This document shows, one piece after another, positions 1-38,474 of a stretch of DNA of 41,036 bases. The DNA is from a virus (lineage: Duplodnaviria; Heunggongvirae; Uroviricota; Caudoviricetes). The position numbers and the translations under genes were made by a program. The stretch is taken from IMG/VR virus record IMGVR_UViG_2778261637_000006, one strand, 5' to 3'. The notes under the pieces are model-generated. The model made no database searches and was not told the origin of the DNA. It saw nothing but the letters and a program-made list of their open reading frames with translations. Position 1 is the first letter of the stretch. Each line of letters starts with the position of its first letter.

Positions 1-573
1 TTACATTTCAGGTTGCGTTATGACAGTCCCAACAGGGTGGTAGCGGTAGATCGTTGACAGTCCAATATCATAGATAATTGCCAGCCGCTTTCTGTCATAC
101 CCTTTCTGGAGCAATCTTGCGATCTGCTCATGCTGCTCCTTCGTCAGTTTCGGGCGACGTCCTCCAACTCTTCCTTGTGCTCGCGCAGCAGCCAGTCCTG
201 CCAGCGTGCGCTCAACTATCAGTTCACGCTCCATTTCTGCCAGTGCACCCATCATATGAAAAAAGAACCTTCCCATCGGAGTGCTGGTATCGATTGAATC
301 CGTCAGACTGCGAAAATTGACACCTTTTGCGCGTAGCTCTTCTGTGAGAGCAATGAGGTGTTTCATTCTTCTACCCAACCGATCCAGCTTCCAGACCACC
401 AATGTATCCCCTCTTTTAAGGCACTTTAAAGCGCGTTTCAGGCCTGGTCGTTCCGACTTGGTTCCGCTCATTTTGTCCTCAAAAATCTGTTCACATCCTG
501 CGCACATTAATGCATTGCGTTGCAAATCTGTGTTTTGGTCATTTGTTGACACACGTATGTAGCCAATCAGCAT
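1..573 (-). CDS. gin: Serine DNA invertase, Gin/Pin/Cin/Hin family
   Basis: 190 aa from internal Met MLIGYIRVSTNDQNTDLQRNAL; conserved resolvase catalytic Ser in VSTNDQ and C-terminal HTH; very close to the Mu Gin and e14 Pin sequences as recalled. The upstream 43 codons of the ORF track are rejected. Confidence 0.9.
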   Translation of the reverse strand: MLIGYIRVSTNDQNTDLQRNALMCAGCEQIFEDKMSGTKSERPGLKRALKCLKRGDTLVVWKLDRLGRRMKHLIALTEELRAKGVNFRSLTDSIDTSTPMGRFFFHMMGALAEMERELIVERTLAGLAAARAQGRVGGRRPKLTKEQHEQIARLLQKGYDRKRLAIIYDIGLSTIYRYHPVGTVITQPEM

Positions 574-628
574 TAAAAATACTCCCTTTTGAGTGGTTAA
601 AGTACTGAGATAATGTGGGGAGGATTTG

Positions 629-850
629 AGAGATAAACGTTGGTTTGGGGGAAGGCTCTGCACTGCCTGTTGGTGTGCCTGTTCCATGGCCCACCGCCAC
701 ACCGCCAGCAGGCTGGTTAAAGTGCGACGGGCGCGCCTTTACAAAAGAACAATATCCTGTTCTGGCCAGAGTCTACCCGACCCTCCGTCTTCCCGATTTG
801 CGCGGTGAGTTTATCCGTGGATGGGACGACGGGCGCAAAGTTGATACGGG
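629..850 (+). repeat. Copy A of a ~215-bp homology block shared by three tail-fibre cassettes; candidate gix/hix-like crossover core at about 629..654
   Basis: Near-identical to 1143..1365 and to the reverse complement of 2570..2784; the start contains AAACGTTGGTTTGGGGGAAGG, resembling the AAACC-NN-GGTTT core of Gin/Hin sites. Confidence 0.5.
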
Positions 851-1148
851 GCGTTCATTGCTAAGTGGTCAGGCTGCAACATTTATTCGTACAGCTTTGC
901 AGGATTATTACGGTTACGATCTGAATACTAATGTCAAAGTAGGTATCGCTTTTGCTACTGCTGATTCTGTTATAACCGTTGGAAACCCAGCTAATCCTAA
1001 AGCAGGAAATAATAGCGATTATGTTCCTGCATCAGCAGATAACTCTATAACGGGTATTCAAAGGACAGCGGAGGATAATTTTACCGGGGCATGGATATCA
1101 ATGCGCCCCCGCAATGTTGCGTTTAATTACATCGTAAGGGCCGCATAA
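645..1148 (+). CDS. Promoterless alternative tail-fibre C-terminal cassette 1
   Basis: Begins with TTG, no SD; first ~70 aa (LGEGSALPVGVPVPWPTATPPAGW...RGWDDGRKVD) match the C-terminal part of the fibre gene, then a divergent ~90 aa tip, ending in conserved RPRNVAFNYIVRAA. Confidence 0.7.
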   Translation: MGEGSALPVGVPVPWPTATPPAGWLKCDGRAFTKEQYPVLARVYPTLRLPDLRGEFIRGWDDGRKVDTGRSLLSGQAATFIRTALQDYYGYDLNTNVKVGIAFATADSVITVGNPANPKAGNNSDYVPASADNSITGIQRTAEDNFTGAWISMRPRNVAFNYIVRAA

Positions 1149-1365
1149 AAACGTTGGTTTGGGGGAAGGCTCTGCATTGCCTGTTGGTGTGCCTGTTCCG
1201 TGGCCCACCGCCACACCGCCAGCAGGCTGGTTACAGTGCAACGGAGCTACGTTCACCAAAGAACAATATCCTGTTCTGGCCAGAGTCTACCCGACCCTCC
1301 GTCTTCCCGATTTACGCGGTGAGTTTATCCGTGGATGGGACGACGGGCGCAAGATTGACGAGGGG
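1143..1365 (+). repeat. Copy B of the homology block; candidate crossover core at about 1143..1168
   Basis: Same AAACGTTGGTTTGGGGGAAGGCTC start and ~200 bp near-identity with copy A. Confidence 0.5.
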
Positions 1366-1632
1366 CGTAAGTTGCTTTCATGGCAGAAAGGTACACTGGT
1401 CGGCGGTCATGACGATAACGATTCTTCGCTGGATATCTCGTACATGAGTAACGGAAATAATATTGACTATGGCGGCGATAAGGTGTTTGCGGGGAATTAC
1501 CGTAGCGATTATTTGTGGTACGCAATTCTGGGTGGAACAAACAGTCGCGCAAAAGCCGAATTAAACGGAGCATTCTTTAACATAACCCGCCCCCGCAATA
1601 TCGCGTTTAACTATATCGTGAGGGCGGCGTGA
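1159..1632 (+). CDS. Promoterless alternative tail-fibre C-terminal cassette 2
   Basis: TTG start, shared N-terminal 70 aa, distinct tip, conserved end RPRNIAFNYIVRAA. Confidence 0.7.
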   Translation: MGEGSALPVGVPVPWPTATPPAGWLQCNGATFTKEQYPVLARVYPTLRLPDLRGEFIRGWDDGRKIDEGRKLLSWQKGTLVGGHDDNDSSLDISYMSNGNNIDYGGDKVFAGNYRSDYLWYAILGGTNSRAKAELNGAFFNITRPRNIAFNYIVRAA

Positions 1633-1638
1633 TACCGT

Positions 1639-2253
1639 TCAGCTGGCAAGTGCCAGTGGCGCTTCCGGCCAGCTGATTTCAGGTGCCGTGCTGATATCCA
1701 GTGCGTTCAGCTCGTCGATATAATCCAGCACGGCGTTCAGTTTTGCCGTTTCTTCTGGTGTCAGACTGCGACCAGCACGCAGTTTGAGGTTGATAAGATC
1801 GACGGACGCCATCGCCTGTTTCACCCGTTGCTGGCGTTGCTGTCTGGCAACCTCCAGTTCTGCGGCTCGCTGCCGTTCAGTATCGGTTACCCACGCCTCA
1901 CCGTTCCAGGTATCCCATGGCGTGGCCGGCTGTTTTGTGGTGGTGTCCGCCGGGTAATCACCCGGTTGGGTAATCAGAACGGGGTTACCGTTCTCCGTGC
2001 TGTATACCGTCTCGCCGCGGTGATCAGGCACATGCTCCCACCCGTTCAGCGTGGCAGTCCGGCAAACCACGTAACCCGAAATTGCCTCCGGCGGTGCATC
2101 GGCGCACGAATGTGCCGGAGTACCCACCCCAAGGGCGAGATACTCCACAGAGGATGAGGTGTATTCCCGGGTTTCCTCGTCATAGTGATATACAGTGATC
2201 TCGCCCGCTACAGTGGCGATACCGTTTTCATCCAGAACTGCAGTGTTACTCAT
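1639..2253 (-). CDS. Tail-fibre assembly protein (Mu U / Tfa family)
   Basis: 204 aa immediately downstream of the fibre gene with 1-nt overlap; Tfa-like N-terminus MSNTAVLDENG and C-terminal region. Confidence 0.8.
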   Translation of the reverse strand: MSNTAVLDENGIATVAGEITVYHYDEETREYTSSSVEYLALGVGTPAHSCADAPPEAISGYVVCRTATLNGWEHVPDHRGETVYSTENGNPVLITQPGDYPADTTTKQPATPWDTWNGEAWVTDTERQRAAELEVARQQRQQRVKQAMASVDLINLKLRAGRSLTPEETAKLNAVLDYIDELNALDISTAPEISWPEAPLALAS

Positions 2254-4190
2254 TAAACTGCCCTCACAATGTAATTAAGTGCAATGCTACGGGGTCTGAC
2301 AGTGATACCCTTCGCATACCCGCTTCTGATAGAGGTCAGAATAGTAGCCTGCATACCATTGTCTGACATTGCCACGACAGGATCGCTGAATGTTGTCCCG
2401 TCCGGCATTTTAAAGCTGCCCTCACGAAGGTCTGTAATGGAATCTTCATTGTTGAATCCCATGCCGACTATCCCCGAGGTTCCCGTAGTGTCCTGGTTAT
2501 AATAATCCAGCATTGCTGTTCTTAACAGCGTTGCCCCTTGTGCGGACAGCAACTTACGTCCTGTATCAACTTTGCGCCCGTCGTCCCATCCACGGATAAA
2601 CTCACCGCGTAAATCGGGAAGACGGAGGGTCGGGTAGACTCTGGCCAGAACAGGATATTGTTCTTTTGTAAAGGCGCGCCCGTCGCACTTTAACCAGCCT
2701 GCTGGCGGTGTGGCGGTGGGCCACGGAACAGGCACACCAACGGGTAGCGCCGAGCCTTCTCCTAAACCAAGGTAATTGAGGACATCTTTTATACTGCCCT
2801 TAGCGATAATAGCGCGACCAATAGCTGTAAGGGTTGCCAGCGCTGCGCGGTCTGCTCCGGTAAAATAAGGCAACCGATCTGCTGCAGTGGCAAGTCCTGC
2901 CAGAGCAGTGAGCGTGGCATCTGCCGGTTGTTTTCCGTTTGCCAGATCGTATGCAGCCTTGACCGCTTTCGGTGTGGCGGCCAGTATTTCAGACGTGCTG
3001 TTGATGGCACTGCTCAATTGTATGGTGCCTTTTGCCGTCAGCGAGGCAGCAGGCACTCCCGTTATCTGACTCCACGGGTGAGTGTGGCTGACGGGCGCCT
3101 TGCCGGCTGCAAGGTCGTATGCAGCCTTGACCGCCTTCGGCGTGGCAGCCTCAGTTTCTGATTGACTGTCCGTGGCGCTGCTCAGTTGTACGGTGCCTTT
3201 TGCCGTCAGCGAGGCAGCAGGCACTCCCGTTATCTGACTCCACGGGTGAGTGTGGCTGACGGGGGCCTTGCCGGCAGCCAGGTCATATGCAGCCTTGACG
3301 GCCTTTGGTGTGGCGGCCAGCGTTTCAGAGGTGCTGTTGGTGGCACTGCTCAGTTGTACGATCCCTTTACGGGTCGTTGTTGCATCCTGGGCTGTGTATT
3401 TTCCCCGGGCCAGATCATACGCGATTTTCACAGCCTTCGGCGTGGCAGCCTCAGTTTCTGATTGACTGTCCGTGGCGCTGCTCAGTTGTACGGTGCCTTT
3501 TGCCGTCAGCGAGGCAGCAGGCACTCCCGTTATCTGACTCCACGGGTGAGTGTGGCTGACGGGGGCCTTGCCGGCAGCCAGGTCATATGCAGCCTTGACG
3601 GCCTTTGGTGTGGCGGCCAGCGTTTCAGAGGTGCTGTTGGTGGCACTGCTCAGTTGTACGATCCCTTTACGGGTCGTTGTTGCATCCTGGGCTGTGTATT
3701 TTCCCCGGGCCAGATCATACGCGATTTTCACAGCCTTCGGCGTGGCAGCCTCAGTTTCTGATTGACTGTCCGTGGCACTGCTCAGCTGTACGGTGCCTTT
3801 TGCCGTCAGCGAGGCAGCAGGCACTCCCGTTATCTGACTCCACGGGTGAGTGTGACTGACGGGTGCCTTGCCGGCTGCAAGGTCGTATGCAGCCTTGACG
3901 GCTTTTGGTGTGGCGGCCAGCGTTTCAGAGGTGCTGTTGGTGGCACTGCTCAGTTGGGTGAACCCCTTAGCTGTCAGTGTCGCGTCCGGGTGGTTACGGG
4001 AACGTACGTGTTCAGCCAGTGACTGTGCGGCTTCCTCCGTTTTTTTCTTCAGCCATTTCGTCCTGTTTGCCAGTTGCCGGGGGGCTCGATTTGATATCCC
4101 GTCAGCACCACCCAGAACCGGATCTGATGTCTCCAGTTGATAGATTTTTTCTTCCCACTTTTCTGTTTCATTCAGGTTTCCCATAATCAA
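2253..4190 (-). CDS. Tail fibre protein (Mu S-like) with internal repeats; currently fused variable tip
   Basis: 645 aa; repeated ~100-aa units (TAKGTVQLSSATDSQSETEAATPKAVK...); C-terminal 170 aa begins with the shared LGEGSALPVG block. Confidence 0.9.
   Translation of the reverse strand: MIMGNLNETEKWEEKIYQLETSDPVLGGADGISNRAPRQLANRTKWLKKKTEEAAQSLAEHVRSRNHPDATLTAKGFTQLSSATNSTSETLAATPKAVKAAYDLAAGKAPVSHTHPWSQITGVPAASLTAKGTVQLSSATDSQSETEAATPKAVKIAYDLARGKYTAQDATTTRKGIVQLSSATNSTSETLAATPKAVKAAYDLAAGKAPVSHTHPWSQITGVPAASLTAKGTVQLSSATDSQSETEAATPKAVKIAYDLARGKYTAQDATTTRKGIVQLSSATNSTSETLAATPKAVKAAYDLAAGKAPVSHTHPWSQITGVPAASLTAKGTVQLSSATDSQSETEAATPKAVKAAYDLAAGKAPVSHTHPWSQITGVPAASLTAKGTIQLSSAINSTSEILAATPKAVKAAYDLANGKQPADATLTALAGLATAADRLPYFTGADRAALATLTAIGRAIIAKGSIKDVLNYLGLGEGSALPVGVPVPWPTATPPAGWLKCDGRAFTKEQYPVLARVYPTLRLPDLRGEFIRGWDDGRKVDTGRKLLSAQGATLLRTAMLDYYNQDTTGTSGIVGMGFNNEDSITDLREGSFKMPDGTTFSDPVVAMSDNGMQATILTSIRSGYAKGITVRPRSIALNYIVRAV
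2570..2784 (-). repeat. Copy C of the homology block, inverted relative to A and B, inside the fibre gene; candidate crossover core at about 2759..2784
   Basis: Reverse complement reads CCTTGGTTTAGGAGAAGGCTC followed by ~190 bp near-identical to copy A. Confidence 0.5.
2860..3960. repeat. Tandem direct repeat, 300-bp unit, about 3.5 copies, in-frame in the fibre gene
   Basis: Identical stretches at 3121, 3421 and 3721 (cagccttcggcgtggcagcctcagtttctgattgactgtccgtggc); shadow ORFs 3162..3461 and 3462..3761 are identical. Confidence 0.85.
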
Positions 4191-26255: not shown

Positions 26256-26999
26256 ATGACGCAGACACTGAATCCGGTCATCACTGTCACCGTGTCCGGT
26301 CCTGTGGGCAGCGGTAAAAGTTACATATTGGCGCGGATAGAGGAAGTGGTGAAACAGGAATTCGGGGGCAGCGTCATTGTCGATGCTGCAGACGTAGATG
26401 ATGAGCGGCGTATGAGTGGCGATGATCTGACGACCTGGCAGAAGCCACGGGGTGGCACAGTGATCAGGCTGGAGGAATACACGGGACAGGGCCTGTTGTC
26501 ATACGGCGAGGAGCGTATCTGTCGGACGAATGAGCTGCTGGATGTTATATGCCCCACGGGCCGGCAACCCTGGATACTGCCCGATGCACTGCATGCCACC
26601 ATTGCGGCACTGATGACAGTTTACGATCAGGAGCTGCTCATGAAGGAGCTACGTAAACTCACCGGTCAGCCAACAGAATGTTTTTCTGCCCCGAAGTACG
26701 GGAAACAGGAACACATCCCGGTGAACACGCTCCCCGTTAACCAGCCTCCCCGGTTCTTCGACGAATACATTCTGACACCGGAAAATAAAGCTGAGCACGA
26801 AGAGATCAAAGCGGCGTTGTTCCGGGAAATCAGGAAGATTGCTGAAATGCAACTGGGGGGCGGGCTGGACAGAGTGATGGCGAGAGGAGAATGGGAGTCG
26901 CTGTTTGAAAGAGTTTCCCCGGAATTACTTCCCCTCGCACTGGCTATCGGGATTATGCAGACAGCGGATAAACCTCACTTACGTTCATTAAACACGTAA
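26256..26999 (+). CDS. P-loop NTPase/kinase-like protein of unknown function
   Basis: 247 aa; Walker A VSGPVGSGKSY at residues 13-22, Walker-B-like SVIVDAADVDDE; GAGGAG SD; opposite strand to the adjacent late genes. Confidence 0.7.
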   Translation: MTQTLNPVITVTVSGPVGSGKSYILARIEEVVKQEFGGSVIVDAADVDDERRMSGDDLTTWQKPRGGTVIRLEEYTGQGLLSYGEERICRTNELLDVICPTGRQPWILPDALHATIAALMTVYDQELLMKELRKLTGQPTECFSAPKYGKQEHIPVNTLPVNQPPRFFDEYILTPENKAEHEEIKAALFREIRKIAEMQLGGGLDRVMARGEWESLFERVSPELLPLALAIGIMQTADKPHLRSLNT

Positions 27000-27379
27000 C
27001 GCATAATCCGGGATACGCATTCAGCGATGACTGCATTTTCACCGGTTTTTACTGCATCCAGAAGTGACTCTTTAAATGGTGCGGGCCGGGGCTGCAGAAG
27101 GGTCGGCGTGGCATTGAGCAGACGGAGCGTTTTTTCCGTGAGGACGACATCAGCCGCTCCCACAGCCAGCAACTGAGAGTAACGAATATAGCTGTTATCC
27201 CGAAGCCATATCAGCGTATCAATAAAATACCGGCACTTTTTCTGGTCGTGATCAACCTGGTCCGGGATATCGAAAAAACCAGAATAAATCAAAACCTGAG
27301 GTGCCGGATGCGTGTTCAGTAATCGGCAGAATATTTTGCCGGTGAGTGCATAAAAATCATCATTTAAGGAGTGCATCAT
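26975..27379 (-). CDS. Hypothetical protein (134 aa)
   Basis: Non-repetitive ORF convergent with the P-loop gene (25-nt overlap); no clear Mor/C-family HTH. Confidence 0.45.
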   Translation of the reverse strand: MMHSLNDDFYALTGKIFCRLLNTHPAPQVLIYSGFFDIPDQVDHDQKKCRYFIDTLIWLRDNSYIRYSQLLAVGAADVVLTEKTLRLLNATPTLLQPRPAPFKESLLDAVKTGENAVIAECVSRIMRYVFNERK

Positions 27380-27593
27380 GAATCCCCGATTAACGTTAAC
27401 AGAACATCAGCGCCGTGCTGAAGCAGTGAACAATGTTCTGGAAGATATTATCCGGTTACATCGCGGAGAACTGAGTGTCTGTCGTGCCGCTTTTCATTTT
27501 CAGGGAATACAAAAGCAGTTTGATACTTCTGTTTTTGCAGAAGGTATTACTTATGCCCTGGACCGGATAAGGTCAGAAAATCGCCCCGGATAA
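27378..27593 (+). CDS. Hypothetical small protein (71 aa)
   Basis: ATG with AAGGAG SD 6 nt upstream. Confidence 0.5.
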   Translation: MNPRLTLTEHQRRAEAVNNVLEDIIRLHRGELSVCRAAFHFQGIQKQFDTSVFAEGITYALDRIRSENRPG

Positions 27594-28549: not shown

Positions 28550-28552
28550 AAC

Positions 28553-28585
28553 AAAACCGGAAAGCACAATGCTTTCCGGTAAACC
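28553..28585 (-). terminator. Hairpin between convergent Dam and repressor genes; likely terminator for the repressor transcript
   Basis: Perfect 10-bp stem ACCGGAAAGC/GCTTTCCGGT, 5-nt loop; on the minus-strand RNA followed by UUUGUUU. Confidence 0.5.
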
Positions 28586-28665
28586 AAACAACTTCCACTA
28601 TGTCACTGGCGATGTTTTCTGAAAGCATCCAGATCAACCACCTGTCCTTTGTGTCCAGGTCAAAA

Positions 28666-29004
28666 TCAGCCTGCGAGTTTGCTTGGTTTGGGTTGAATGA
28701 AGACTTTGCCGACCTCAAGAATTGCCCTCCGTTGTTCGGGGCTCATTTCGTCGAATGCATCCATTAACTCTTTCTTTTCTTGTGACACATAAGGTGCAAC
28801 AACAGGCTGACTCCGCACCCCAGTAACTACATACAAAATATCTACACCGATTTCTGATAGTGCAGATAACTGCACTGCAGTAGGAGAAGTGCGATCTTTT
28901 TCCCAATCAATGAAAGTTCTCTTTGCCACACCTATAGCATCAGCCAACCCTTGCTGTGTAAGAGATAGACGCTCTCTTTCTTCTTTAATACGTAACCCGA
29001 TCAT
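28666..29004 (-). CDS. Prophage repressor candidate, XRE-family HTH
   Basis: 112 aa from ATG at 29004; HTH LSLTQQGLADAIGVAKRTFIDWEKDRTSP; divergent from the early operon. Confidence 0.75.
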   Translation of the reverse strand: MIGLRIKEERERLSLTQQGLADAIGVAKRTFIDWEKDRTSPTAVQLSALSEIGVDILYVVTGVRSQPVVAPYVSQEKKELMDAFDEMSPEQRRAILEVGKVFIQPKPSKLAG

Positions 29005-29028
29005 GTGAGTTTTTCTGCACTCTTTAAG

Positions 29029-29057
29029 TTGACTGGTGAGGTAATCTGCACCATAAT
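29029..29057 (+). promoter_or_regulatory. Candidate sigma70 early promoter for the ner-like/transposase operon
   Basis: TTGACT (29029..29034), 17-nt spacer, CATAAT (29052..29057); AAGGAG SD 6 nt before ATG 29105. Confidence 0.45.
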
Positions 29058-29104
29058 CTATCACACATAAGGCAAACATCATTGCATCAACAAAGGAGAC
29101 AACG

Positions 29105-29293
29105 ATGACTGCAGAACAAGTCAAAGCTCTCTTCCGCCAGCGCGGGATCACTTTCACCCGCTGGGCAGAAGAAAACGGCTACAACCGCAATGAGGTATAC
29201 CGCGTTCTCAATGGGCAGACCAAAGCCCGTTACGGTAAATCCCATGAAATCGCCGTGAAGTTGGGGCTGAAATCAACAGCTCAGGCAGCCTGA
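29105..29293 (+). CDS. Ner/Cro-like small DNA-binding protein
   Basis: 62 aa, first gene of the early operon, HTH-like ITFTRWAEENGYNRNEVYRVLNG. Confidence 0.55.
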   Translation: MTAEQVKALFRQRGITFTRWAEENGYNRNEVYRVLNGQTKARYGKSHEIAVKLGLKSTAQAA

Positions 29294-29345
29294 AGATTTT
29301 GAGTCTTTGTAAAAGGTTATCACATATCGCAAAAGAGGTATGCAG

Positions 29346-29654
29346 ATGAGTAAGACGAATGTTTCAAGCTCCGGCAGTCGCATCCTCCGGGTACTCAAAG
29401 CGCTGCGCGGTCATGCCCTGAACGGTATTTCCAACGGTGAACTGGCGGCAGCACTGCACGAGTCACCGGCAAACATCAACCGGGCACTCAACACCCTCAT
29501 TGAAGAAGGGTTGGCCCTGAAACTGGAAAACGGGCGTTTCGCGCCGGGCATCCAGTTACTGCAGATCGCTATGGCCCACAGTAACGAGATGGCACGTGCA
29601 CAGGATCGCATTAACGAAATCAACCAACGTGTCATTTCAGGTAGTCGTTTGTAA
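29346..29654 (+). CDS. Winged-helix-like putative regulator
   Basis: About 102 aa; ATG 29346 has better SD spacing than 29340; ISNGELAAALHESPANINRALNTLIEEGL resembles wHTH. Confidence 0.5.
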   Translation: MSKTNVSSSGSRILRVLKALRGHALNGISNGELAAALHESPANINRALNTLIEEGLALKLENGRFAPGIQLLQIAMAHSNEMARAQDRINEINQRVISGSRL

Positions 29655-29664
29655 GGAGTAATAA

Positions 29665-30576
29665 ATGGGACGCACCAAATCACCGATTAACACTGAACTG
29701 AACGCCGAGGTACCGCTGTCGGATGATCTCAATGTCAGTCTGAACGCCATGACACAGCATCGTATGGAGATCATGCAGCAGTTTGGCGATGGTCAGCCCT
29801 ATGAGCGTGATCGCATAGTTCATGAGGCTCGGTTTTATATGGCACAGAGCGCTGAGGCCATGCTGGAAGCAGGTAAACGACTTATTATTCTCAAAGAAAA
29901 TGAACCTCACGGGGACTTTGTTGGAATTGTAGAAGAACAACTTGGTCTGCATGTGCGCGCAGCACAACGAATGATGAAAGCATCTTTGAAATACCTTTCA
30001 CCAAAACTAGAGCCAAAAGCGACAACGTTGTCGCTTTTAGGTAAGGCAAAATTATTTGAACTTGTTGCTGAAGATGACGACGACCTTGCTGAACTGGCCG
30101 ACGGTGGCACAGTTGCCGGACTGACGCTTGACGATGTTGATCGCATGTCAGTACGTGAATTGCGTCAGGCCCTGCGCGAAGCGCGCGAAACCAACGCAGC
30201 ACAACAGCGCGTACTCGCCGACAAAAATGAAAAAATAGACTCACTCTCCACCAGACTGGAGAAGAAATCCCGTATTCAGCCACCTGAGCCTGATGAAGAG
30301 GTGAAGAAACTGCGGGCAGAAGTGACCGCGTTAGCGGTTGAGGCGGAATCTGCCATCGCCGTTCGACTGTCCAGCGCTTTTGAGACGCTGTGCGCATATT
30401 GTGCTGAAAACATGATTGATACCCCCAGAGACTTCATGGCAGGCCTGGTCTGTCAACTGGAAAGCACAGCGCGTAGCCTGCGCTCCACATTTGACCTGCC
30501 GGACGAGCCAACAGGCAATGCAGCGCCTTCATGGCTGACTGAGCCGACGCCACAGATTAACGGGCTGGAGGCATAA
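29665..30576 (+). CDS. Hypothetical protein with acidic/coiled-coil middle
   Basis: 303 aa, AAGGAG SD; between the ner-like gene and the transposase. Confidence 0.55.
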   Translation: MGRTKSPINTELNAEVPLSDDLNVSLNAMTQHRMEIMQQFGDGQPYERDRIVHEARFYMAQSAEAMLEAGKRLIILKENEPHGDFVGIVEEQLGLHVRAAQRMMKASLKYLSPKLEPKATTLSLLGKAKLFELVAEDDDDLAELADGGTVAGLTLDDVDRMSVRELRQALREARETNAAQQRVLADKNEKIDSLSTRLEKKSRIQPPEPDEEVKKLRAEVTALAVEAESAIAVRLSSAFETLCAYCAENMIDTPRDFMAGLVCQLESTARSLRSTFDLPDEPTGNAAPSWLTEPTPQINGLEA

Positions 30577-30579
30577 CCA

Positions 30580-32349
30580 ATGAATGCTGCCCTGACTGAA
30601 CGACTGGTTTATGTCGCCCGCGCGGCACGTGACGCGGGGCATGGTAAACGCGGCGCAGTATACGACGCTGCCTGTGCTGAACTTGGCATGTCCCGCGCCA
30701 CTCTGCTGCGCAGGCTGAAGGAGGTATCTGTGACTGATAAACGCAAAAAACGCGCCGATGCCGGGCGCAGCGCCCTGACCCGCGACGAAGCCGCGCTGAT
30801 ATCTGCCACACTGCGTGAGGCCACCCGCAAGAACGGTAAGCGTCTCTATTCCATCGCGGATGCAGTGGAAACCCTGCGGGCTAACGGCTTTATATCCGCA
30901 GGCAGAACAGATGAAACCACCGGTGAGTTTTTCCCGTTGTCCGAAGATGCCATCAGCCGAGCCCTGCGTAACTATGGCCTGCACCCGGAACAACTGGATG
31001 CCCCTGCGCCGCATACCGAAGTGGCCAGTCTGCATCCCAATCATGTCTGGCAGATTGACGCCTCACTCTGCACGCTTTACTACCTGAGCAATGGACATAA
31101 AGGGCTGCAGGTGATGGACAGCGCGAAGTTCTACAAGAACAAGCCCGCTAACCTTGCCCGTATCGCCAGTGACCGCGTGTGGAGTTACGAGATTACCGAC
31201 CATGCCAGCGGCTGGATTTACGTTGAGTATGTGACGGGCGCGGAATCAGGTGAGAACCTGTGTTCTGTGCTTATCAACGCCATGCAGGAGCGTGGCGGCG
31301 CAGACGTGCTGCACGGTGTGCCGAAAATACTCTATCTCGACCCCGGCTCGGCAAACACCGCGGGTATGACGAAAAACATGTGCCGCTCACTGGGCATCGA
31401 CCTGATAGCGCACAAGCCGCATAACGCCCGCGCCACCGGACAGGTGGAAAAGGCGCGGGACATTATCGAACGCAAGCTGGAGCCGGGTCTGAAGTTCCGG
31501 CCGGTTCACAGTCTGGAAGAACTCAACGCGCTGGCCGCGAAATGGCGCAGCCACTTTAACGCCACGGCTGTTCACAGCCGCCACGGTAAAACCCGCACGG
31601 ATATCTGGCTGAAGATTACTGCTGAGCAGCTGAAAAAAGCGCCTTCCGTTGAGGTATGTCGTGAACTGGCTGTGGCGGCACCAGAACTCCGCAAAGTCAC
31701 GCCAAAACTTCGTGTCTCGTTCCGGGGCACTGAATTTGACGTATCAACGGTACCGGGCGTACTGGTTGGTGAAAAACTGATGATTACCCGTAACCCGTGG
31801 CGCAGCGATGTGGCACAGGTGGTTCTGACCGGTGAGGACGGCCACGAGACGTTCTTCCTGGTCGAAGAGGTCAGAAAGAACGAGTTTGGCTTTGCTGAAG
31901 GCGCGGCGGTATTTGGCGAAAGTTACAAAGCCCTGCCGGAAACCCCGGCGCAGATGGCGGCAAAAGAAACCGAAGCGCTGGTCACCGGTACAGACAACGC
32001 CGCAGATGCAGCTGCCGCACGCAAGGCGAAGGCGCTGCCGTTCGGCGGGCGGCTTGACCCGTATAAACATATCGACGACACCACACTTCCGGCCTATATG
32101 CCGAAGCGTGGTCAGGCCTCTGACGTACGCGGGCCGCGCACTGAACAACGTCCCATGACTTATGTGGAGGCCGCGAAAGCCCTGCGCGATAAGTTCAGCG
32201 CCAACGGCTTTACCTGGACGCCGGAACATTACCGCCAGTTAACGGCACAGTATCCGGACGGCGTACCGGAAGCCGCACTGGATGAAGTCATGGCCACGCT
32301 GACCACGCCGGCCCGCAGCAGCGTTATCAGTATTGTTAACGGCAACTGA
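30580..32349 (+). CDS. DDE transposase, Mu A-like (rve/integrase core)
   Basis: 589 aa; integrase-core-like region from about residue 150 (HVWQIDASL, ILYLDPGSANT); followed by B-like ATPase and Gam. Confidence 0.85.
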   Translation: MNAALTERLVYVARAARDAGHGKRGAVYDAACAELGMSRATLLRRLKEVSVTDKRKKRADAGRSALTRDEAALISATLREATRKNGKRLYSIADAVETLRANGFISAGRTDETTGEFFPLSEDAISRALRNYGLHPEQLDAPAPHTEVASLHPNHVWQIDASLCTLYYLSNGHKGLQVMDSAKFYKNKPANLARIASDRVWSYEITDHASGWIYVEYVTGAESGENLCSVLINAMQERGGADVLHGVPKILYLDPGSANTAGMTKNMCRSLGIDLIAHKPHNARATGQVEKARDIIERKLEPGLKFRPVHSLEELNALAAKWRSHFNATAVHSRHGKTRTDIWLKITAEQLKKAPSVEVCRELAVAAPELRKVTPKLRVSFRGTEFDVSTVPGVLVGEKLMITRNPWRSDVAQVVLTGEDGHETFFLVEEVRKNEFGFAEGAAVFGESYKALPETPAQMAAKETEALVTGTDNAADAAAARKAKALPFGGRLDPYKHIDDTTLPAYMPKRGQASDVRGPRTEQRPMTYVEAAKALRDKFSANGFTWTPEHYRQLTAQYPDGVPEAALDEVMATLTTPARSSVISIVNGN

Positions 32350-32359
32350 GGAGGGAAAC

Positions 32360-33526
32360 ATGCTGGTACTGAAGCAGCAACTGAAAGAAGCCCGTATTCC
32401 ACAGGCGGTGGTGGCGAGAGCTGTCGATGTTTCTGAGGCCACGCTGGCCCAGATTGTGAATCATAACGCGTGGCCCCGCACCAGCCCCGGAGAAGTGCGC
32501 CGGCGTCTTGCGTCCTGGCTGGAAAGTCAGGGGATTGATACAACGAAGAGTTTTGATGCTGTACAGGGCGCGGCCACGCCCCGTACAGCGGGTACCACAG
32601 ATAAAACGAGCCTCAGTGAGGAAGAGAATATGTTACTCAAAAAACAGGTGTTATTTCCAGCAACCAAAAAAGCGTTTGGTCTTTTCCGTGACCCGTTCGC
32701 CGACGAAGCCATGCAGGGTTCTGATGATGTGTTCACCACCCCGGATATTCGCTACGTGCGTGAGGCGTTGTACCAGACAGCCCGTCATGGTGGGTTTATG
32801 GCCGTCATCGGTGAGTCCGGTGCGGGTAAATCCACGCTGCGCCGCGACCTGACTGAACGTATCAACCGCGAGAATGCGCCGGTAATTGTTATCGAGCCAT
32901 ACATCATCGCTATGGAAGACAACGATGTGAAAGGGAAAACCCTGAAGGCAGCAGCGATTGCCGAAGCCATTATCAGTACCATCGCACCACTGGAAAGCAT
33001 CAGACGCAGTCAGGACGCCCGCTTTCGCCAGTTGCATCGCGTCCTGAAAGACAGCAGCCAGGCGGGGTTCAGCCACGTTCTGGTGATTGAGGAGGCCCAC
33101 AGTCTGCCCATTCCGACACTGAAACACCTCAAACGCTTTTTTGAGCTGGAGTCCGGTTTCAAAAAACTGCTGTCCATCGTGCTGATTGGCCAGCCGGAAC
33201 TGGCGACAAAACTGTCTGAACGCAATATGGAAGTCCGTGAAGTCGTTCAGCGCTGTGAGGTGGTCGAACTTCTGCCTCTGGACAATAACCTTGAAGAGTT
33301 TCTGACGTTCAAACTGCAACGGGCCGGTAAACAACTGACGGACATTATGGACGCCAGCGCAGTGGATGCCATACGTGCCCGCCTGAGCAATCCGGGAAGT
33401 CATCGTAAAAATATGGTCAGCCTGCTGTATCCGCTGGCCGTCAGTAACCTGGTAATAGCCGCCATGAATCTGGCCGCTGAAATCGGGGTTCCACAGGTCA
33501 ACGCTGACGTTGTCAAAGGGGTTTAA
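32360..33526 (+). CDS. Transposition ATPase, Mu B-like (AAA+)
   Basis: 388 aa from ATG 32360 with GAGGAGGG SD; N-terminal HTH, Walker A GESGAGKST, Walker B HVLVIEEAH. Confidence 0.8.
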   Translation: MLVLKQQLKEARIPQAVVARAVDVSEATLAQIVNHNAWPRTSPGEVRRRLASWLESQGIDTTKSFDAVQGAATPRTAGTTDKTSLSEEENMLLKKQVLFPATKKAFGLFRDPFADEAMQGSDDVFTTPDIRYVREALYQTARHGGFMAVIGESGAGKSTLRRDLTERINRENAPVIVIEPYIIAMEDNDVKGKTLKAAAIAEAIISTIAPLESIRRSQDARFRQLHRVLKDSSQAGFSHVLVIEEAHSLPIPTLKHLKRFFELESGFKKLLSIVLIGQPELATKLSERNMEVREVVQRCEVVELLPLDNNLEEFLTFKLQRAGKQLTDIMDASAVDAIRARLSNPGSHRKNMVSLLYPLAVSNLVIAAMNLAAEIGVPQVNADVVKGV

Positions 33527-36343: not shown

Positions 36344-36785
36344 ACAACGTCTTATCCAGCTCATTCATATTGCCCGTAATGAACTGGGTATGGATGAAGA
36401 CACCTACCGCCAGATGTTACAGGGGCTGACCGGTAAAGCCTCAACCAAAGGAATGGATACCACACAACTAAACTGCGTGCTGGAATCCATGAAAAGGAAA
36501 GGCTTTCGCGTTAAGCCTGCCGGAAAAGCCAGCTCCGGTTTACCGCTGGATAACCATCCGCAGTCCAGGAAAATCCGTGCGCTATGGCTTGAAATGGCTG
36601 CTGCCGGCATTGTTCGTGACCGTTCAGAAAATGCATTAGCGCGGTGGATCAAGCGGGAAACGGGCATCAGCGCCCTGCGCTGGCTCAGTACTGAACAGGC
36701 AAGCAGTGTTATTGAGAAACTGAAGAAGTGGCAGCGCAGAGCTGCGGGAGTCAAACATGAGCGACCTGAATCAGTTTCGAAGTAA
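36333..36785 (+). CDS. GemA-like protein (Mu gp16, DUF1018-like)
   Basis: 150 aa from ATG 36333 with AAAGGAG SD; immediately upstream of mor as in Mu. Confidence 0.6.
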   Translation: MMTKQRLIQLIHIARNELGMDEDTYRQMLQGLTGKASTKGMDTTQLNCVLESMKRKGFRVKPAGKASSGLPLDNHPQSRKIRALWLEMAAAGIVRDRSENALARWIKRETGISALRWLSTEQASSVIEKLKKWQRRAAGVKHERPESVSK

Positions 36786-37155
36786 AGGGCCGGAACTCCT
36801 GGTGGAGCTGGCACAGCATACCTCTGAGACCGTTCGCGAGATTATTGATATTGAGCCCGCAATTGCCGACCAGATTGGTCAGGCCGTCGCGAACCGAATG
36901 ATGCAGGTCTGGGGCGGGCAAAACGTTTATTTCCCGATGGGCATGGTATGGAAGGTCAGTCAGCGCGACCGGGAAATCTTCAGGGAGTTTAACGGACGCA
37001 ACCACCACGAACTGGCCCGCAAGTTTGGTGTTTCGCTTCAGTGGGTCTACAGCGTGGTTAAGCGGGTCAGAAAAGAAGAACTGGATCGGATGCAGGGCAG
37101 GTTGTTTGATGAAGATCTGCCAGAGGAGACGAAAGACGTTAACAAATCCAGATAA
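36757..37155 (+). CDS. mor: Middle operon regulator Mor (Mor/C family activator)
   Basis: 132 aa; C-terminal HTH FNGRNHHELARKFGVSLQWVYSVVKRVR matches the Mor pattern. Confidence 0.8.
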   Translation: MSDLNQFRSKGPELLVELAQHTSETVREIIDIEPAIADQIGQAVANRMMQVWGGQNVYFPMGMVWKVSQRDREIFREFNGRNHHELARKFGVSLQWVYSVVKRVRKEELDRMQGRLFDEDLPEETKDVNKSR

Positions 37156-37198
37156 TTCCTGCTTGTTAAAGTCCTTTCAAAAATCTCCTTATTGTATA

Positions 37199-37231
37199 AA
37201 AGCACGGTAGACCCCTTACCGTGCTTTTTTT
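37199..37231 (+). terminator. Rho-independent terminator after mor
   Basis: Stem AGCACGGTA / TACCGTGCT with 7-nt loop followed by TTTTTTT. Confidence 0.8.
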
Positions 37232-37269
37232 ATGCTCTCTCTTTAGTATTCAGGATGCAGGGAGAAAAT

Positions 37270-37902
37270 ATGTTTGACGTTTCGTTGTTAAATCTGCCAT
37301 GGGCAACACTGGTGACCCTGACCAGTGGCTATATTGGGTATTTTATTGCGAATGTGGGACTGAAGGATCACCACAAGCCCATTGAGGTGACTTTTTCTTC
37401 GCTGATTTTTGGCCTGACAGCAATGATGGCTTACCAGGCTGTTATGTGGGCAGGTCTGAATGCCTGGCTGGCAACACCACCAGCACTTCTGTGTGCCCTT
37501 ACATGCGGTGCGTGGTGGCGCAGGTACGGTCGCAAATGGATGTACAGATTACTGTGGAATAATGATATTTCATGGTCTGACGATACCAGCTCAGCATGGC
37601 AGGCAATGTTTGATCAAACAGGCTTCAGCGTTACCGAGGTCAGAGTGATTCTTCGCGATGGTTCCGGTATGATGTCACGGCTGCCAGGGAACTTTGAAGA
37701 GTGGCCTAACGGTCCGTTTACCCTGGGGAATAAAGGCGATATGGTTCTTTACGTCACGCACAGCAGCCCTTCAGGCAGTAACGAATGGGAAGAGTATAAA
37801 GGCGTGGTTGATAAGTACTGGGGAGCTCTGGCAACCTATATTCCAGCAGATCAGATTGCCAGAGTGGAGATCAGGCGCGTTCGTGCAACGAACGATGAAT
37901 GA
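37270..37902 (+). CDS. Membrane protein of unknown function (cargo near the prophage edge)
   Basis: 210 aa from ATG 37270 with GGGAGAA SD; about three N-terminal TM helices then ~110-aa soluble domain; after the mor terminator. Confidence 0.6.
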   Translation: MFDVSLLNLPWATLVTLTSGYIGYFIANVGLKDHHKPIEVTFSSLIFGLTAMMAYQAVMWAGLNAWLATPPALLCALTCGAWWRRYGRKWMYRLLWNNDISWSDDTSSAWQAMFDQTGFSVTEVRVILRDGSGMMSRLPGNFEEWPNGPFTLGNKGDMVLYVTHSSPSGSNEWEEYKGVVDKYWGALATYIPADQIARVEIRRVRATNDE

Positions 37903-38474
37903 TGTTTATTTTTTCCCTGGGGCAGGGGCTGCCGGCATAGTGGTTTTATTGGCAGAGGAAGACGATTCTCCTTTTCTACCGGAATCGCGCTCGAACGTCA
38001 CGATGTGCTTGCTTTTGGGCTTTTCTGAGTAATCCAGGCTATCATGCTTATTGTTTTGAGTAGTCATTGGAATCATCCTTTTTGTTGCGGGTCATGTTTC
38101 AGCAAACTCGATTCTAAGTTGCCAGGAAGGATGATTTCAATGCCCGACTTATCTATCGTATAGCGGAAAAGAATTTCAGTTCTGTTCACCAGAACCCATG
38201 TTAACCCACTCCAATTCGTTATTTATCTCACGGATCCCCCTTCATTTATCTCATGTCTGATCATTTATTCAACCGACGCAATTTTGCGTACCTGCTTCAT
38301 AAGCATCACGCAAAAGCTGCAAAACAGCATCTTTCCCGGAATCACCATCAAGAACTCGCCGTTCGCTTCTTCCCCTGAAATGATTAACTCCGGTATCATG
38401 TGCGCCTTATGTGATTACAACGAAAATAAAAACCATCACACCTCATTTAATATCAGGGAACCGGACATAACCCC

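What the first reader, a model, noticed from the sequence alone, without database searches (positions are those of the whole stretch)
28666..32349. Short transposase paired with an XRE-type repressor instead of a Mu c-type repressor
The transposase is 589 aa and its catalytic core starts near residue 150, leaving a much shorter N-terminal DNA-binding region than I recall for MuA (663 aa). The repressor here is a 112-aa XRE-family HTH protein rather than a Mu c-type repressor related to the MuA N-terminus. Together this suggests the operator/enhancer coupling between repressor and transposase differs from Mu.
Basis: partly seen in the sequence, partly recalled or inferred. Interest (0 to 1): 0.5.

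Follow-up and report, generated by a model that had tools for sequence, protein, structure and literature searches.

The report
BcepMu/B3-type transposable prophage early region
This is the normal early-gene module of a BcepMu/B3-type transposable prophage of E. coli, whose transposase belongs to a Tn552-related lineage that lacks Mu's enhancer-binding domain and pairs with a small XRE-type repressor, a difference from Mu that is already published.

Summary
A 112-aa HTH_3 (XRE/cI-type) protein is encoded at 28666-29004(-). It faces an early operon that includes a 589-aa DDE transposase at 30580-32349(+), whose rve core starts at about residue 152.

It is not a shortened MuA. The window holds a Bcepmuvirus-like prophage in an E. 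coli chromosome. The transposase is 98% identical to that of Escherichia phage PhiKM, 68% to BcepMu gp09 and 57% to B3 TnpA.

The module of repressor(-), Ner-like HTH, winged-HTH protein, DUF3102 protein, TnpA and AAA+ TnpB recurs in BcepMu, B3, phiSHP3 and Bise.

The first 150 residues fold confidently (pLDDT 86.6) into two DNA-binding subdomains joined by a basic linker. There is no room for a third domain. None of the Pfam Mu domains is present, including PF02316, which MuA and Mu c share. In the joint PHROG profile phrog_310, this protein starts at column 129, after the columns that the Mu c repressor matches.

The ends are TG...CA with GNGATAAAT repeats 23 bp apart. A sister copy has a 6-bp target duplication. 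The candidate operators are unrelated to the end repeats.

The inference that Mu-type repressor/transposase coupling is absent is supported at sequence level. It is already published for this family, so interest is low.

The parts
28666..29004 (-). Putative lysogeny (immunity) repressor, 112 aa. XRE/cI-type HTH at residues 6-51 plus a C-terminal part of about 60 aa. No S24 peptidase domain.
   Evidence: Pfam HTH_3 at 1.6e-7 and weak Phage_CI_repr. PHROG repressor and regulator families. 37-42% identical to the divergently placed repressors of B3 and phiE255, and to repressors of P2-like phages. Only 33% identical to the PhiKM counterpart although the flanks are 94-98% identical, which is an immunity swap.
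29005..29123 (.). Divergent regulatory region. It holds three copies of TGAS-N4-TCTGCAS: O1 at 29006-29020(+), O2 at 29037-29051(+) and O3 at 29109-29123(-). It also holds a sigma70-like early promoter with -35 TTGACT at 29029-29034 and -10 CATAAT at 29052-29057.
   Evidence: Repeats found. The pattern occurs three times here and nowhere else in 41 kb, against 0.10 expected, but it was derived from these same copies. Promoter-like site. O2 fills the -35/-10 spacer. Operator function is inferred, not shown.
29105..29293 (+). Ner/Cro-like small HTH protein, 62 aa, first gene of the early operon.
   Evidence: phrog_925 at 3.8e-33. Weak HTH_31 and HTH_35. Same position as BcepMu gp16, B3 ORF17 and the Bise 'Ner-like antirepressor'.
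29340..29654 (+). Conserved winged-HTH (IclR/MarR-like) protein, 104 aa.
   Evidence: Pfam HTH_IclR at 3e-6. phrog_1368 at 9e-45. Syntenic with BcepMu gp12, B3 ORF14 and phiSHP3 orf18.
29665..30576 (+). DUF3102-family protein, 303 aa, function unknown, always immediately upstream of tnpA in this phage group.
   Evidence: Pfam DUF3102 at 4e-5. phrog_1748 at 1.9e-140. Syntenic with BcepMu gp10 and B3 ORF13.
30580..32349 (+). TnpA, a 589-aa DDE transposase of the BcepMu/B3 (Tn552-related) type.
   Evidence: 98% identical to PhiKM, 68% to BcepMu gp09 and 57% to B3 TnpA. rve at residues 152-282. phrog_310 at 2.4e-147, profile columns 129-687. 2359 homologues at E<=1e-5; among the 240 retrieved by the two searches, 228 are 560-620 aa.
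30586..30726 (+). TnpA N-terminal subdomain 1 (residues 3-49): three-helix HTH.
30781..30999 (+). TnpA N-terminal subdomain 2 (residues 68-140): helices plus a beta-hairpin, winged-helix-like. It follows the basic linker 51-67 (RKKRADAGRS...).
   Evidence: Same model: H68-85, H92-101, E108-110, E117-119, H122-131. R55, K56, R58 and D60 are invariant within the closer homologues, and R58 and D60 remain invariant in the 48-sequence set. The best Foldseek PDB hits to the whole two-domain module, not significant, are three ShCAST TnsB structures at E about 0.3 over about 150 columns.
31033..31677 (+). TnpA RNase H-like DDE catalytic core (about residues 152-366) with D160, D254 and E290.
   Evidence: Pfam rve. 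D254 and E290 align to the second D and the E of retroviral integrases. All three residues are invariant in 24 homologues.
32360..33526 (+). TnpB, an AAA+ transposition ATPase (ExeA-like), functional analogue of MuB.
   Evidence: Pfam AAA_22 at 3.8e-20. phrog_296 'DNA transposition protein' at 2e-93. PGAP start and 'ExeA family' name. Syntenic with BcepMu gp08 and B3 ORF11.
38221..38263 (+). Prophage end proximal to the early genes. Two ATTTATCTCA repeats (38221-38230 and 38244-38253) lie 23 bp apart, followed by the terminal ...TGATCA. Host DNA upstream of mutS starts at 38264.
   Evidence: The host match starts at window 38264. Repeats. Both ends and the BcepMu ends have the same layout: TG, then a GNGATAWWT repeat starting at nt 12, then a second copy 23 bp later. 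The other end lies about 78 bp before window position 1.

Best explanation
The region is the immunity and early-transposition module of a BcepMu-like (Bcepmuvirus) transposable prophage in an E. coli chromosome.

TnpA architecture. TnpA is a Tn552-related rve-type DDE transposase with these parts in order:
- a three-helix HTH (residues 3-49);
- a basic linker;
- a winged-helix-like subdomain (residues 68-140);
- a DDE core (D160, D254, E290);
- a small beta-rich domain;
- C-terminal helices.

This is the MuA/TnsB layout without the extra N-terminal I-alpha domain that lets MuA bind the operator-overlapping enhancer.

Inferred mechanism. The two N-terminal subdomains most likely bind the GNGATAAAT repeats, which are spaced 23 bp apart at the TG...CA ends. 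TnpA then acts with the adjacent AAA+ TnpB to transpose, making 6-bp target duplications. The 112-aa XRE-type repressor most likely binds the three TGAS-N4-TCTGCAS repeats around the divergent promoter region. This would shut off the early operon (ner-like, winged-HTH, DUF3102, tnpA, tnpB) by promoter occlusion. Immunity would then be purely transcriptional, with no Mu-style competition between repressor and transposase for shared sites.

Shown here: gene identities, domain content, end structure, the 6-bp duplication, family membership and the absence of Mu-type domains.

Inferred: which protein binds which repeats, the absence of an enhancer, and the way the prophage is induced.
For: Family membership.
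- TnpA is 98% identical to PhiKM (taxonomy Bcepmuvirus), 68% to BcepMu gp09 (annotated 'Tn552/IS1604 rve transposase') and 57% to B3 TnpA.
- The full gene order is shared with BcepMu, B3, phiSHP3 and Bise.
- Late genes lie on the opposite strand to the early operon, as in BcepMu and B3 (PMC5977238).

Domain content.
- Pfam finds rve only. None of PF02316, PF09039, PF02914 or PF09299 is found, although MuA hits all four and Mu c hits PF02316.
- In phrog_310, MuA residues 1-644 cover profile columns 6-639 and Mu c residues 3-79 cover columns 18-96. This TnpA starts at column 129, BcepMu at 134 and B3 at 127.
- The N-terminal model (pLDDT 86.6) has exactly two DNA-binding subdomains.
- The N-terminal module sits at the very start of 565-644-aa proteins in nearly all full-length representatives among the 150 best listed (560 clusters matched in all). 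No PF02316 was found in the four outliers checked.

Repressor and DNA sites.
- TnpA residues 1-157 and the repressor give no BLASTP alignment.
- The ends and their repeats match the BcepMu layout.
- A 6-bp duplication, ACAAAT, flanks the same prophage in rstB of strain ABU 83972.
- The same prophage sits in malE, in rstB and upstream of mutS in different strains.
- The operator-like repeats occur only in the immunity region. End-type repeats are absent from it.

Literature. PMC8705779 reports two end-binding domains and a missing enhancer-binding domain for B3/Tn552-type prophage TnpA. PMC2628397 treats BcepMu gp17 as the lysogeny repressor and notes the TG...CA ends.
Against: - No experiment on this element was found in the library searched.
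- The operator pattern was defined from the same three copies that it then 'finds', so its significance is overstated.
- No promoter for the repressor gene met the scan criteria.
- The full-length model is poor in the catalytic core, so the beta-rich domain and the C-terminal helices rest on a moderate-confidence model.
- Lack of an I-alpha domain does not prove lack of an enhancer. The conserved winged-HTH and DUF3102 proteins could act in trans.
Confidence: 0.85

Rival explanations
1. The 589-aa protein is a MuA homologue that lost its N-terminal enhancer-binding domain by deletion, for example in a decaying prophage. On this view the arrangement is a degenerate Mu rather than a distinct system.
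For: PHROGs places MuA and this protein in one remote-homology family. This protein starts at profile column 129 and so looks N-terminally shorter. 663 minus about 76 residues of I-alpha is close to 589.
Against: - BLAST and hhalign detect no significant similarity to MuA.
- The core is rve (PF00665), not DDE_2 (PF02914).
- Length and N-terminal layout are constant in the relatives examined, including the isolated phages BcepMu, B3, PhiKM and KP12.
- Plasmid-borne transposases annotated as IS481 family or integrase align from residue 30 to about 388. The N-terminus is therefore shared with non-phage relatives.
- The target duplication is 6 bp, not Mu's 5 bp.
Confidence: 0.03
2. Enhancer-like control still exists but is supplied in trans. 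The conserved winged-HTH protein (29340-29654), the DUF3102 protein (29665-30576) or both bind an internal site and help or gate transpososome assembly. They would functionally replace MuA I-alpha.
For: Both genes sit immediately upstream of tnpA in every relative inspected, down to 32% TnpA identity. Both have strong dedicated PHROG families with no assigned mechanism. MuA I-alpha is itself a winged helix (established knowledge).
Against: There is no sequence link to PF02316. No repeated internal site was found other than the operator-like repeats. Synteny in an operon does not show a role in transposition. PhiKM carries an extra ORF between the DUF3102 gene and tnpA, so tight coupling is not required.
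Confidence: 0.1
3. The 112-aa XRE protein is not the lysogeny repressor. It could be an accessory regulator or an antitoxin-like protein, and immunity would be set by another protein such as the Ner-like or winged-HTH protein.
For: It is small and lacks a cleavable S24 domain. No promoter for it was detected. The region next to it holds unannotated accessory genes.
Against: - It lies divergently, directly against the first early gene, as in BcepMu gp17, B3 ORF18, the Bise 'CI-like repressor' and phiSHP3 orf20.
- It is the segment that is swapped between otherwise near-identical phages, which is typical of an immunity determinant.
- Homologues are annotated as immunity repressors in P2-like and Mu-like phages.
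- PMC2628397 treats the KS10 and BcepMu counterparts as lysogeny repressors.
Confidence: 0.05

Closest known systems
Burkholderia phage BcepMu (Bcepmuvirus), with its enterobacterial relatives Escherichia phage PhiKM and Klebsiella phage KP12
   Same: TnpA is 68% identical to BcepMu gp09 and 98% to PhiKM. The gene order is the same from repressor(-) through Ner-like HTH, winged-HTH, DUF3102, TnpA, AAA+ TnpB, Gam, GemA and Mor. Late genes are on the opposite strand. The TG...CA ends carry GNGATAWWT repeats 23 bp apart.
   Different: The immunity module differs: the repressor is only 33% identical to PhiKM's and is shorter than BcepMu gp17 (112 versus 138 aa). The accessory genes next to the repressor and at the early-gene end also differ.
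Pseudomonas phage B3 (Beetrevirus) TnpA and ORF18 repressor
   Same: 57% TnpA identity over the full length (593 versus 589 aa). The early-operon synteny is the same. The divergent repressor is cI/P22 c2-like and 37% identical.
   Different: B3 carries extra early genes (ORF15 and ORF16) and has a siphovirus tail (established knowledge). The host is different.
Phage Mu MuA with the c repressor and the enhancer (IAS)
   Same: Same lifestyle and same overall order of transposase parts: end-binding DNA-binding domains, DDE core, beta-rich domain, then a C-terminal tail. MuA and this protein fall in one PHROG (phrog_310). Both elements have an AAA+ partner, Gam, GemA, Mor, TG...CA ends and a Gin-type invertible tail-fibre segment.
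   Different: There is no I-alpha domain (PF02316) in the transposase or the repressor. The repressor is XRE-type. The core is rve, not DDE_2. The duplication is 6 bp, not 5 bp. The repressor and operators lie mid-genome, about 9.2 kb from the nearest end, rather than about 1 kb from attL. BLAST and hhalign find no significant similarity to Mu c, Ner, A or B.
Tn552/IS481-like and Tn7-type (TnsB) transposases
   Same: All have an rve DDE core preceded by a bipartite HTH plus winged-helix DNA-binding region. Plasmid-borne transposases annotated as IS481 family align from residue 30 to about 388 at about 26% identity. The top Foldseek PDB hits for the N-terminal module are ShCAST TnsB. The BcepMu record and PMC8705779 call the family Tn552-related.
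   Different: Those elements are transposons, not phages. The structural similarity found here is weak and not significant. The region C-terminal to the core and the TnpB partner differ.

Membership tests
BcepMu/B3-type (Tn552-related) transposable-phage transposase TnpA | Full-length sequence homology to BcepMu gp09 and B3 TnpA | tested here: met
   tblastn gives 68% identity over 98% of the length to BcepMu and 57% over 100% to B3, with E reported as 0.
BcepMu/B3-type (Tn552-related) transposable-phage transposase TnpA | rve-type RNase H core with a conserved D,D(35)E triad | tested here: met
   Pfam PF00665 at residues 152-282. D160, D254 and E290 are invariant, and D254 and E290 align to the integrase D and E.
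BcepMu/B3-type (Tn552-related) transposable-phage transposase TnpA | [quoted passage not shown] | tested here: met
   The AF2 model of residues 1-150 (pLDDT 86.6) has an HTH plus a winged-helix-like subdomain. No PF02316 is found. The protein starts at phrog_310 column 129. DNA binding itself was not tested.
BcepMu/B3-type (Tn552-related) transposable-phage transposase TnpA | Element ends 5'-TG...CA-3' with repeated subterminal binding sites | tested here: met
   The right end is ...TGATCA at 38263. The left end is TGATGCG..., seen in sister copies. Both carry two GNGATAAAT repeats 23 bp apart, in the same register as the BcepMu ends.
BcepMu/B3-type (Tn552-related) transposable-phage transposase TnpA | 6-bp target-site duplication | tested here: met
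   ACAAAT is duplicated on both sides of the same prophage in rstB of ABU 83972. It cannot be checked in the window because the left junction lies outside it.
BcepMu/B3-type (Tn552-related) transposable-phage transposase TnpA | Adjacent AAA+ TnpB gene and early operon inverted relative to the late genes | tested here: met
   AAA_22 and phrog_296 gene at 32360-33526. Late genes lie on the minus strand at 1-26158 and early genes on the plus strand.
MuA-type transposase | Mu I-alpha DNA-binding domain (PF02316) at the N-terminus, shared with the Mu c repressor | tested here: not met
   No hit even at E<=5, whereas MuA scores 1.3e-57 and Mu c 3.2e-54 in the same scan.
MuA-type transposase | Mu-specific core and flanking domains (PF02914 DDE_2, PF09039 I-gamma, PF09299 Mu-transpos_C) | tested here: not met
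   None is found. hhalign of the family profile against MuA gives a probability of 3% or less. A fold-level relationship was not resolved.
MuA-type transposase | 5-bp target-site duplication | tested here: not met
   The sister copy has a 6-bp duplication. The 5-bp figure for Mu is established knowledge.
Mu c-type repressor | N-terminal winged-helix domain homologous to MuA I-alpha (PF02316) | tested here: not met
   The repressor hits HTH_3, HTH_31, HTH_19 and Phage_CI_repr only. tblastn with Mu c finds nothing in the window.
XRE/cI-type phage repressor | N-terminal HTH_3-type helix-turn-helix | tested here: met
   PF01381 at 1.6e-7, above its cut-off, at residues 6-51.
XRE/cI-type phage repressor | C-terminal S24 (LexA/lambda cI-type) autocleavage domain | tested here: not met
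   No peptidase S24 hit, and only about 60 residues follow the HTH. It therefore resembles the short repressors of P2-like phages that it matches, not lambda cI.
XRE/cI-type phage repressor | Binds operators at the early promoter and confers immunity | not testable with these tools
   The only evidence is positional: three repeats bracket a sigma70-like promoter, and the module is swapped relative to PhiKM.

The most novel reading that the evidence does not exclude
In BcepMu/B3-type phages the cis coupling used by Mu, in which the enhancer overlaps the operators and is read by the I-alpha domain, may be replaced by trans-acting factors. The universally syntenic winged-HTH (phrog_1368) and DUF3102 (phrog_1748) proteins, encoded just upstream of tnpA, could bind an internal site or TnpA itself. 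They would license transpososome assembly and link the lysis-lysogeny decision to transposition by a route not yet described.
Probability: 0.1. Interest if true: 0.5.

Novelty: already known. Interest (0 to 1): 0.1.

Why it matters
It matters little beyond correct annotation. The region should be labelled as a BcepMu-like (Tn552-related TnpA) transposable prophage, not as a Mu variant. The repressor should be called as 112 aa, not with the 152-aa TTG start that PGAP uses.

The family is common. Part of the 801-bp immunity-region query (28550-29350) matches in 591 of 5,426 complete E. coli genomes, and this immunity type in 93. The prophage inserts into genes such as malE and rstB. Its regulation is therefore relevant to strain variation.

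Whether these phages need any transposition enhancer, and what the conserved winged-HTH and DUF3102 proteins do, did not complete by any paper found in the library searched. The finding as stated does not open a new route to those questions.

Tried and rejected
1. Profile comparison of the TnpA family with MuA. The full-length profile (A1) and the N-terminal profile (A2) gave only non-significant hhalign matches. One was a 20-residue HTH match of TnpA 31-50 to MuA 210-232 at 3% probability. No subdomain-to-subdomain equivalence is claimed.

2. Full-length AlphaFold2 model from 24 close homologues. Mean pLDDT was 58.7 and the catalytic core was poor. It was not used for fold search. Only its beta-rich and C-terminal segments are mentioned, with caution.

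4. Sequence searches of PDB with the protein and with the N-terminal profile found nothing significant.

5. Search for end-type TnpA sites (AWWTATCKC or ATTTATCTCA) in the immunity region as a possible enhancer. None was found, and the total count in the window is at chance level apart from the two terminal copies. Mu's enhancer sites also differ from its end sites, so this is a weak test.

6. The first operator pattern, written with N5 spacing, missed the repeats through my own error. It was corrected to N4.

7. Stop-codon readthrough fusing the DUF3102 protein to TnpA. The two are in the same frame one codon apart here. They are not in frame in B3 or BcepMu, and PhiKM has an extra ORF between them, so the idea was dropped.

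8. tblastn of Mu c, Ner, A and B against the window gave nothing below E 0.1.

9. A check of four unusually long family members for an added N-terminal domain found no PF02316.

Full report
**What is in the sequence**

The window carries a prophage. Its late genes run leftward on the minus strand (1-26158). Its early operon runs rightward from 29105 to about 37900. Host DNA 100% identical to E. coli, lying upstream of mutS, begins at 38264.

The features in the finding are real.
- The minus-strand ORF ends at 28666. From the ATG at 29004 it encodes 112 aa with a Pfam HTH_3 domain at residues 6-51.
- The plus-strand ORF 30580-32349 encodes 589 aa. A stop lies just upstream, so it cannot be extended.
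- The only significant Pfam domain in that protein is rve, at residues 152-282.
- D160, D254 and E290 are invariant in 24 homologues. D254 and E290 align with the catalytic D and E of retroviral integrases.
- The 112-aa start is preferred over the 152- and 163-aa alternatives. All phage homologues align from residue 2 of the short form. The longer forms overlap the divergent gene that starts at 29105.

**What it is**

The transposase is 98% identical to that of Escherichia phage PhiKM, which is classified in Bcepmuvirus. It is 93.5% identical to that of Escherichia phage Phi06_2974 B. Klebsiella phage KP12 matches the region at 87% DNA identity. The transposase is 68-69% identical to those of BcepMu and phiE255, and about 57% to that of Pseudomonas phage B3.

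The BcepMu record annotates its orthologue, gp09, as a 'Tn552/IS1604 rve transposase'. It annotates the divergent gp17 as a 'cro/cI repressor'. B3 ORF18 is annotated as 'similar to phage P22 c2 repressor'.

One gene order recurs in BcepMu, B3, phiSHP3 (42% TnpA identity) and Bise (32%):
1. repressor on the minus strand;
2. Ner-like HTH;
3. winged-HTH protein;
4. DUF3102 protein;
5. TnpA;
6. AAA+ TnpB.

Further downstream the window has Gam, GemA and Mor.

The family is large. The first search returned 2359 homologues, and 228 of the 240 proteins retrieved by the two searches are 560-620 aa. Part of the 801-bp immunity-region query (28550-29350) matches in 591 of 5,426 complete E. coli genomes.

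**Ends and mobility**

The end near the early genes reads ...CATTTATCTCATGTCTGATCA at 38263. The other end lies about 78 bp before window position 1 and was read in sister copies. It begins TGATGCGCCGCGCGATAAATG.

Both ends, and both ends of BcepMu, have the same layout. Each starts with TG, has a GNGATAWWT repeat starting at nucleotide 12, and has a second copy 23 bp further in.

The same prophage lies in malE in strain Esc31, in rstB in ABU 83972, and upstream of mutS here. In ABU 83972 it is flanked by a 6-bp duplication, ACAAAT. PMC8705779 gives a 6-bp duplication as the footprint of a B3/Tn552-family transposase. Mu makes 5 bp (established knowledge).

**The transposase N-terminus**

Across 81 homologues with less than 80% mutual identity, the region before the core is 147-155 aa in all but one, which is a shorter sequence.

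An AlphaFold2 model of residues 1-150, built on 48 diverse sequences, is confident (mean pLDDT 86.6). It shows three parts:
- a three-helix HTH at residues 3-49;
- a conserved basic linker at residues 51-67;
- a second subdomain of helices plus a beta-hairpin at residues 68-140.

That is two DNA-binding subdomains, with no space for a third.

Sequence comparisons with Mu were run with positive controls.
- MuA (663 aa) hits PF02316, PF09039, PF02914 and PF09299. Mu c hits PF02316. This TnpA hits none of them, even at E<=5.
- In the remote-homology family phrog_310, MuA residues 1-644 cover profile columns 6-639 and Mu c residues 3-79 cover columns 18-96. This TnpA begins at column 129, BcepMu at 134 and B3 at 127.
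- hhalign and BLAST find no significant similarity to MuA.
- TnpA residues 1-157 and the repressor give no alignment at all.
- A profile search of 1.84 billion representative proteins matched 560 clusters. Among the 150 best listed, nearly every full-length protein (565-644 aa) carries the module at its very start. The four long or offset proteins checked carry no PF02316.
- Plasmid-borne transposases annotated as IS481 family align from residue 30 to about 388. The N-terminal layout is therefore shared with non-phage relatives and is not a truncation of MuA.

**The regulatory region**

The 100-bp intergenic region and its edge hold three copies of TGAS-N4-TCTGCAS, at 29006-29020(+), 29037-29051(+) and 29109-29123(-). 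The pattern occurs nowhere else in the window, against 0.10 expected. It was, however, derived from these same copies.

A sigma70-like promoter points into the early operon. Its -35 is TTGACT at 29029 and its -10 is CATAAT at 29052. The second repeat fills the spacer between them.

End-type repeats are absent from this region. The repressor and its candidate operators lie about 9.2 kb from the nearest prophage end, not about 1 kb as in Mu.

The repressor is only 33% identical to PhiKM's, although the flanking genes are 94-98% identical. That is the usual signature of an exchangeable immunity module. The repressor has no S24 cleavage domain. Its best phage matches, all at 37-42% identity, include the short repressors of P2-like phages (phiCTX, Dobby) and those of B3 and phiE255.

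**Most likely mechanism**

This part is inferred.
- The XRE repressor binds the three repeats and blocks the early promoter. That keeps tnpA and tnpB silent.
- When the operon is expressed, TnpA binds the subterminal repeats through its two N-terminal subdomains. It then transposes with TnpB, making 6-bp duplications.
- The repressor and transposase share no DNA-binding domain, and their candidate sites are unrelated. Mu-style direct competition at an operator-overlapping enhancer is therefore not expected.
- It cannot be excluded that the conserved winged-HTH and DUF3102 proteins supply an accessory function in trans.

**Comparison with the literature and verdict**

[quoted passage not shown] It cites Toussaint and Van Gijsegem on phages with a Tn552-related transposase. 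PMC8705779 reports that B3/Tn552-type prophage TnpA proteins have two end-binding domains, a DDE core and a small beta-barrel. [quoted passage not shown] PMC2628397 treats BcepMu gp17 as the lysogeny repressor and notes the TG...CA ends.

Its inference is right at the sequence level but is already established for this family. The element is an ordinary, widespread member of a known kind.

Noticed in passing
window 1-4190 (invertase 1-573 minus strand; partial tail ORFs 645-1632 plus strand; tail-fibre assembly 1639-2253 and tail fibre 2253-4190 minus strand): A Gin/Cin-type serine invertase (Resolvase plus HTH_7) sits next to the tail-fibre genes. Two partial, oppositely oriented tail-protein ORFs lie between them. 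This looks like a Mu G-segment-type invertible host-range switch.
   Followed up: partly
window 28550-29350 compared with L001 (PhiKM) 29153-29857: The immunity module is exchanged. The repressor is only 33% identical to PhiKM's while the transposase is 98% identical, so the two are probably heteroimmune variants of one phage. This immunity type is in 93 of 5,426 complete E. coli genomes. A match to part of the 801-bp immunity-region query is in 591.
   Followed up: partly
window 26256-27593: Three ORFs of unknown function lie between the lysis cassette and the Dam methylase and repressor: a 247-aa protein (plus strand, weak P-loop/AAA_30 hit), a 134-aa protein (minus strand) and a 71-aa protein (plus strand). 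This is a typical position for accessory or exclusion genes. None has a significant Pfam family.
   Followed up: no
window 37192-38067: Extra coding capacity lies between mor (36757-37155) and the prophage end at 38263. It comprises a plus-strand ORF of about 210-236 aa with no Pfam hit and a small minus-strand ORF annotated in ABU 83972. BcepMu has no genes in the equivalent position.
   Followed up: no
window 38264 (host junction); L003 5923; L004 20214; L010 172-177: No complete E. coli genome in the collection carries the prophage at this site upstream of mutS. Near-identical copies sit in malE (Esc31) and rstB (ABU 83972), and the rstB copy has a 6-bp duplication, ACAAAT. This points to recent, near-random transposition that disrupts host genes.
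   Followed up: yes
window 29004-29157: RefSeq/PGAP annotates the repressor in many genomes as 152 aa from a TTG at 29124. That start overlaps the ATG of the divergent Ner-like gene. Homologues support the 112-aa form, so the start is probably mis-annotated.
   Followed up: partly
window 30574-30582: The DUF3102 stop codon and the tnpA ATG are in the same reading frame, one codon apart. This is not conserved in B3 or BcepMu, and PhiKM has an extra ORF there. It was treated as coincidence rather than programmed readthrough.
   Followed up: yes
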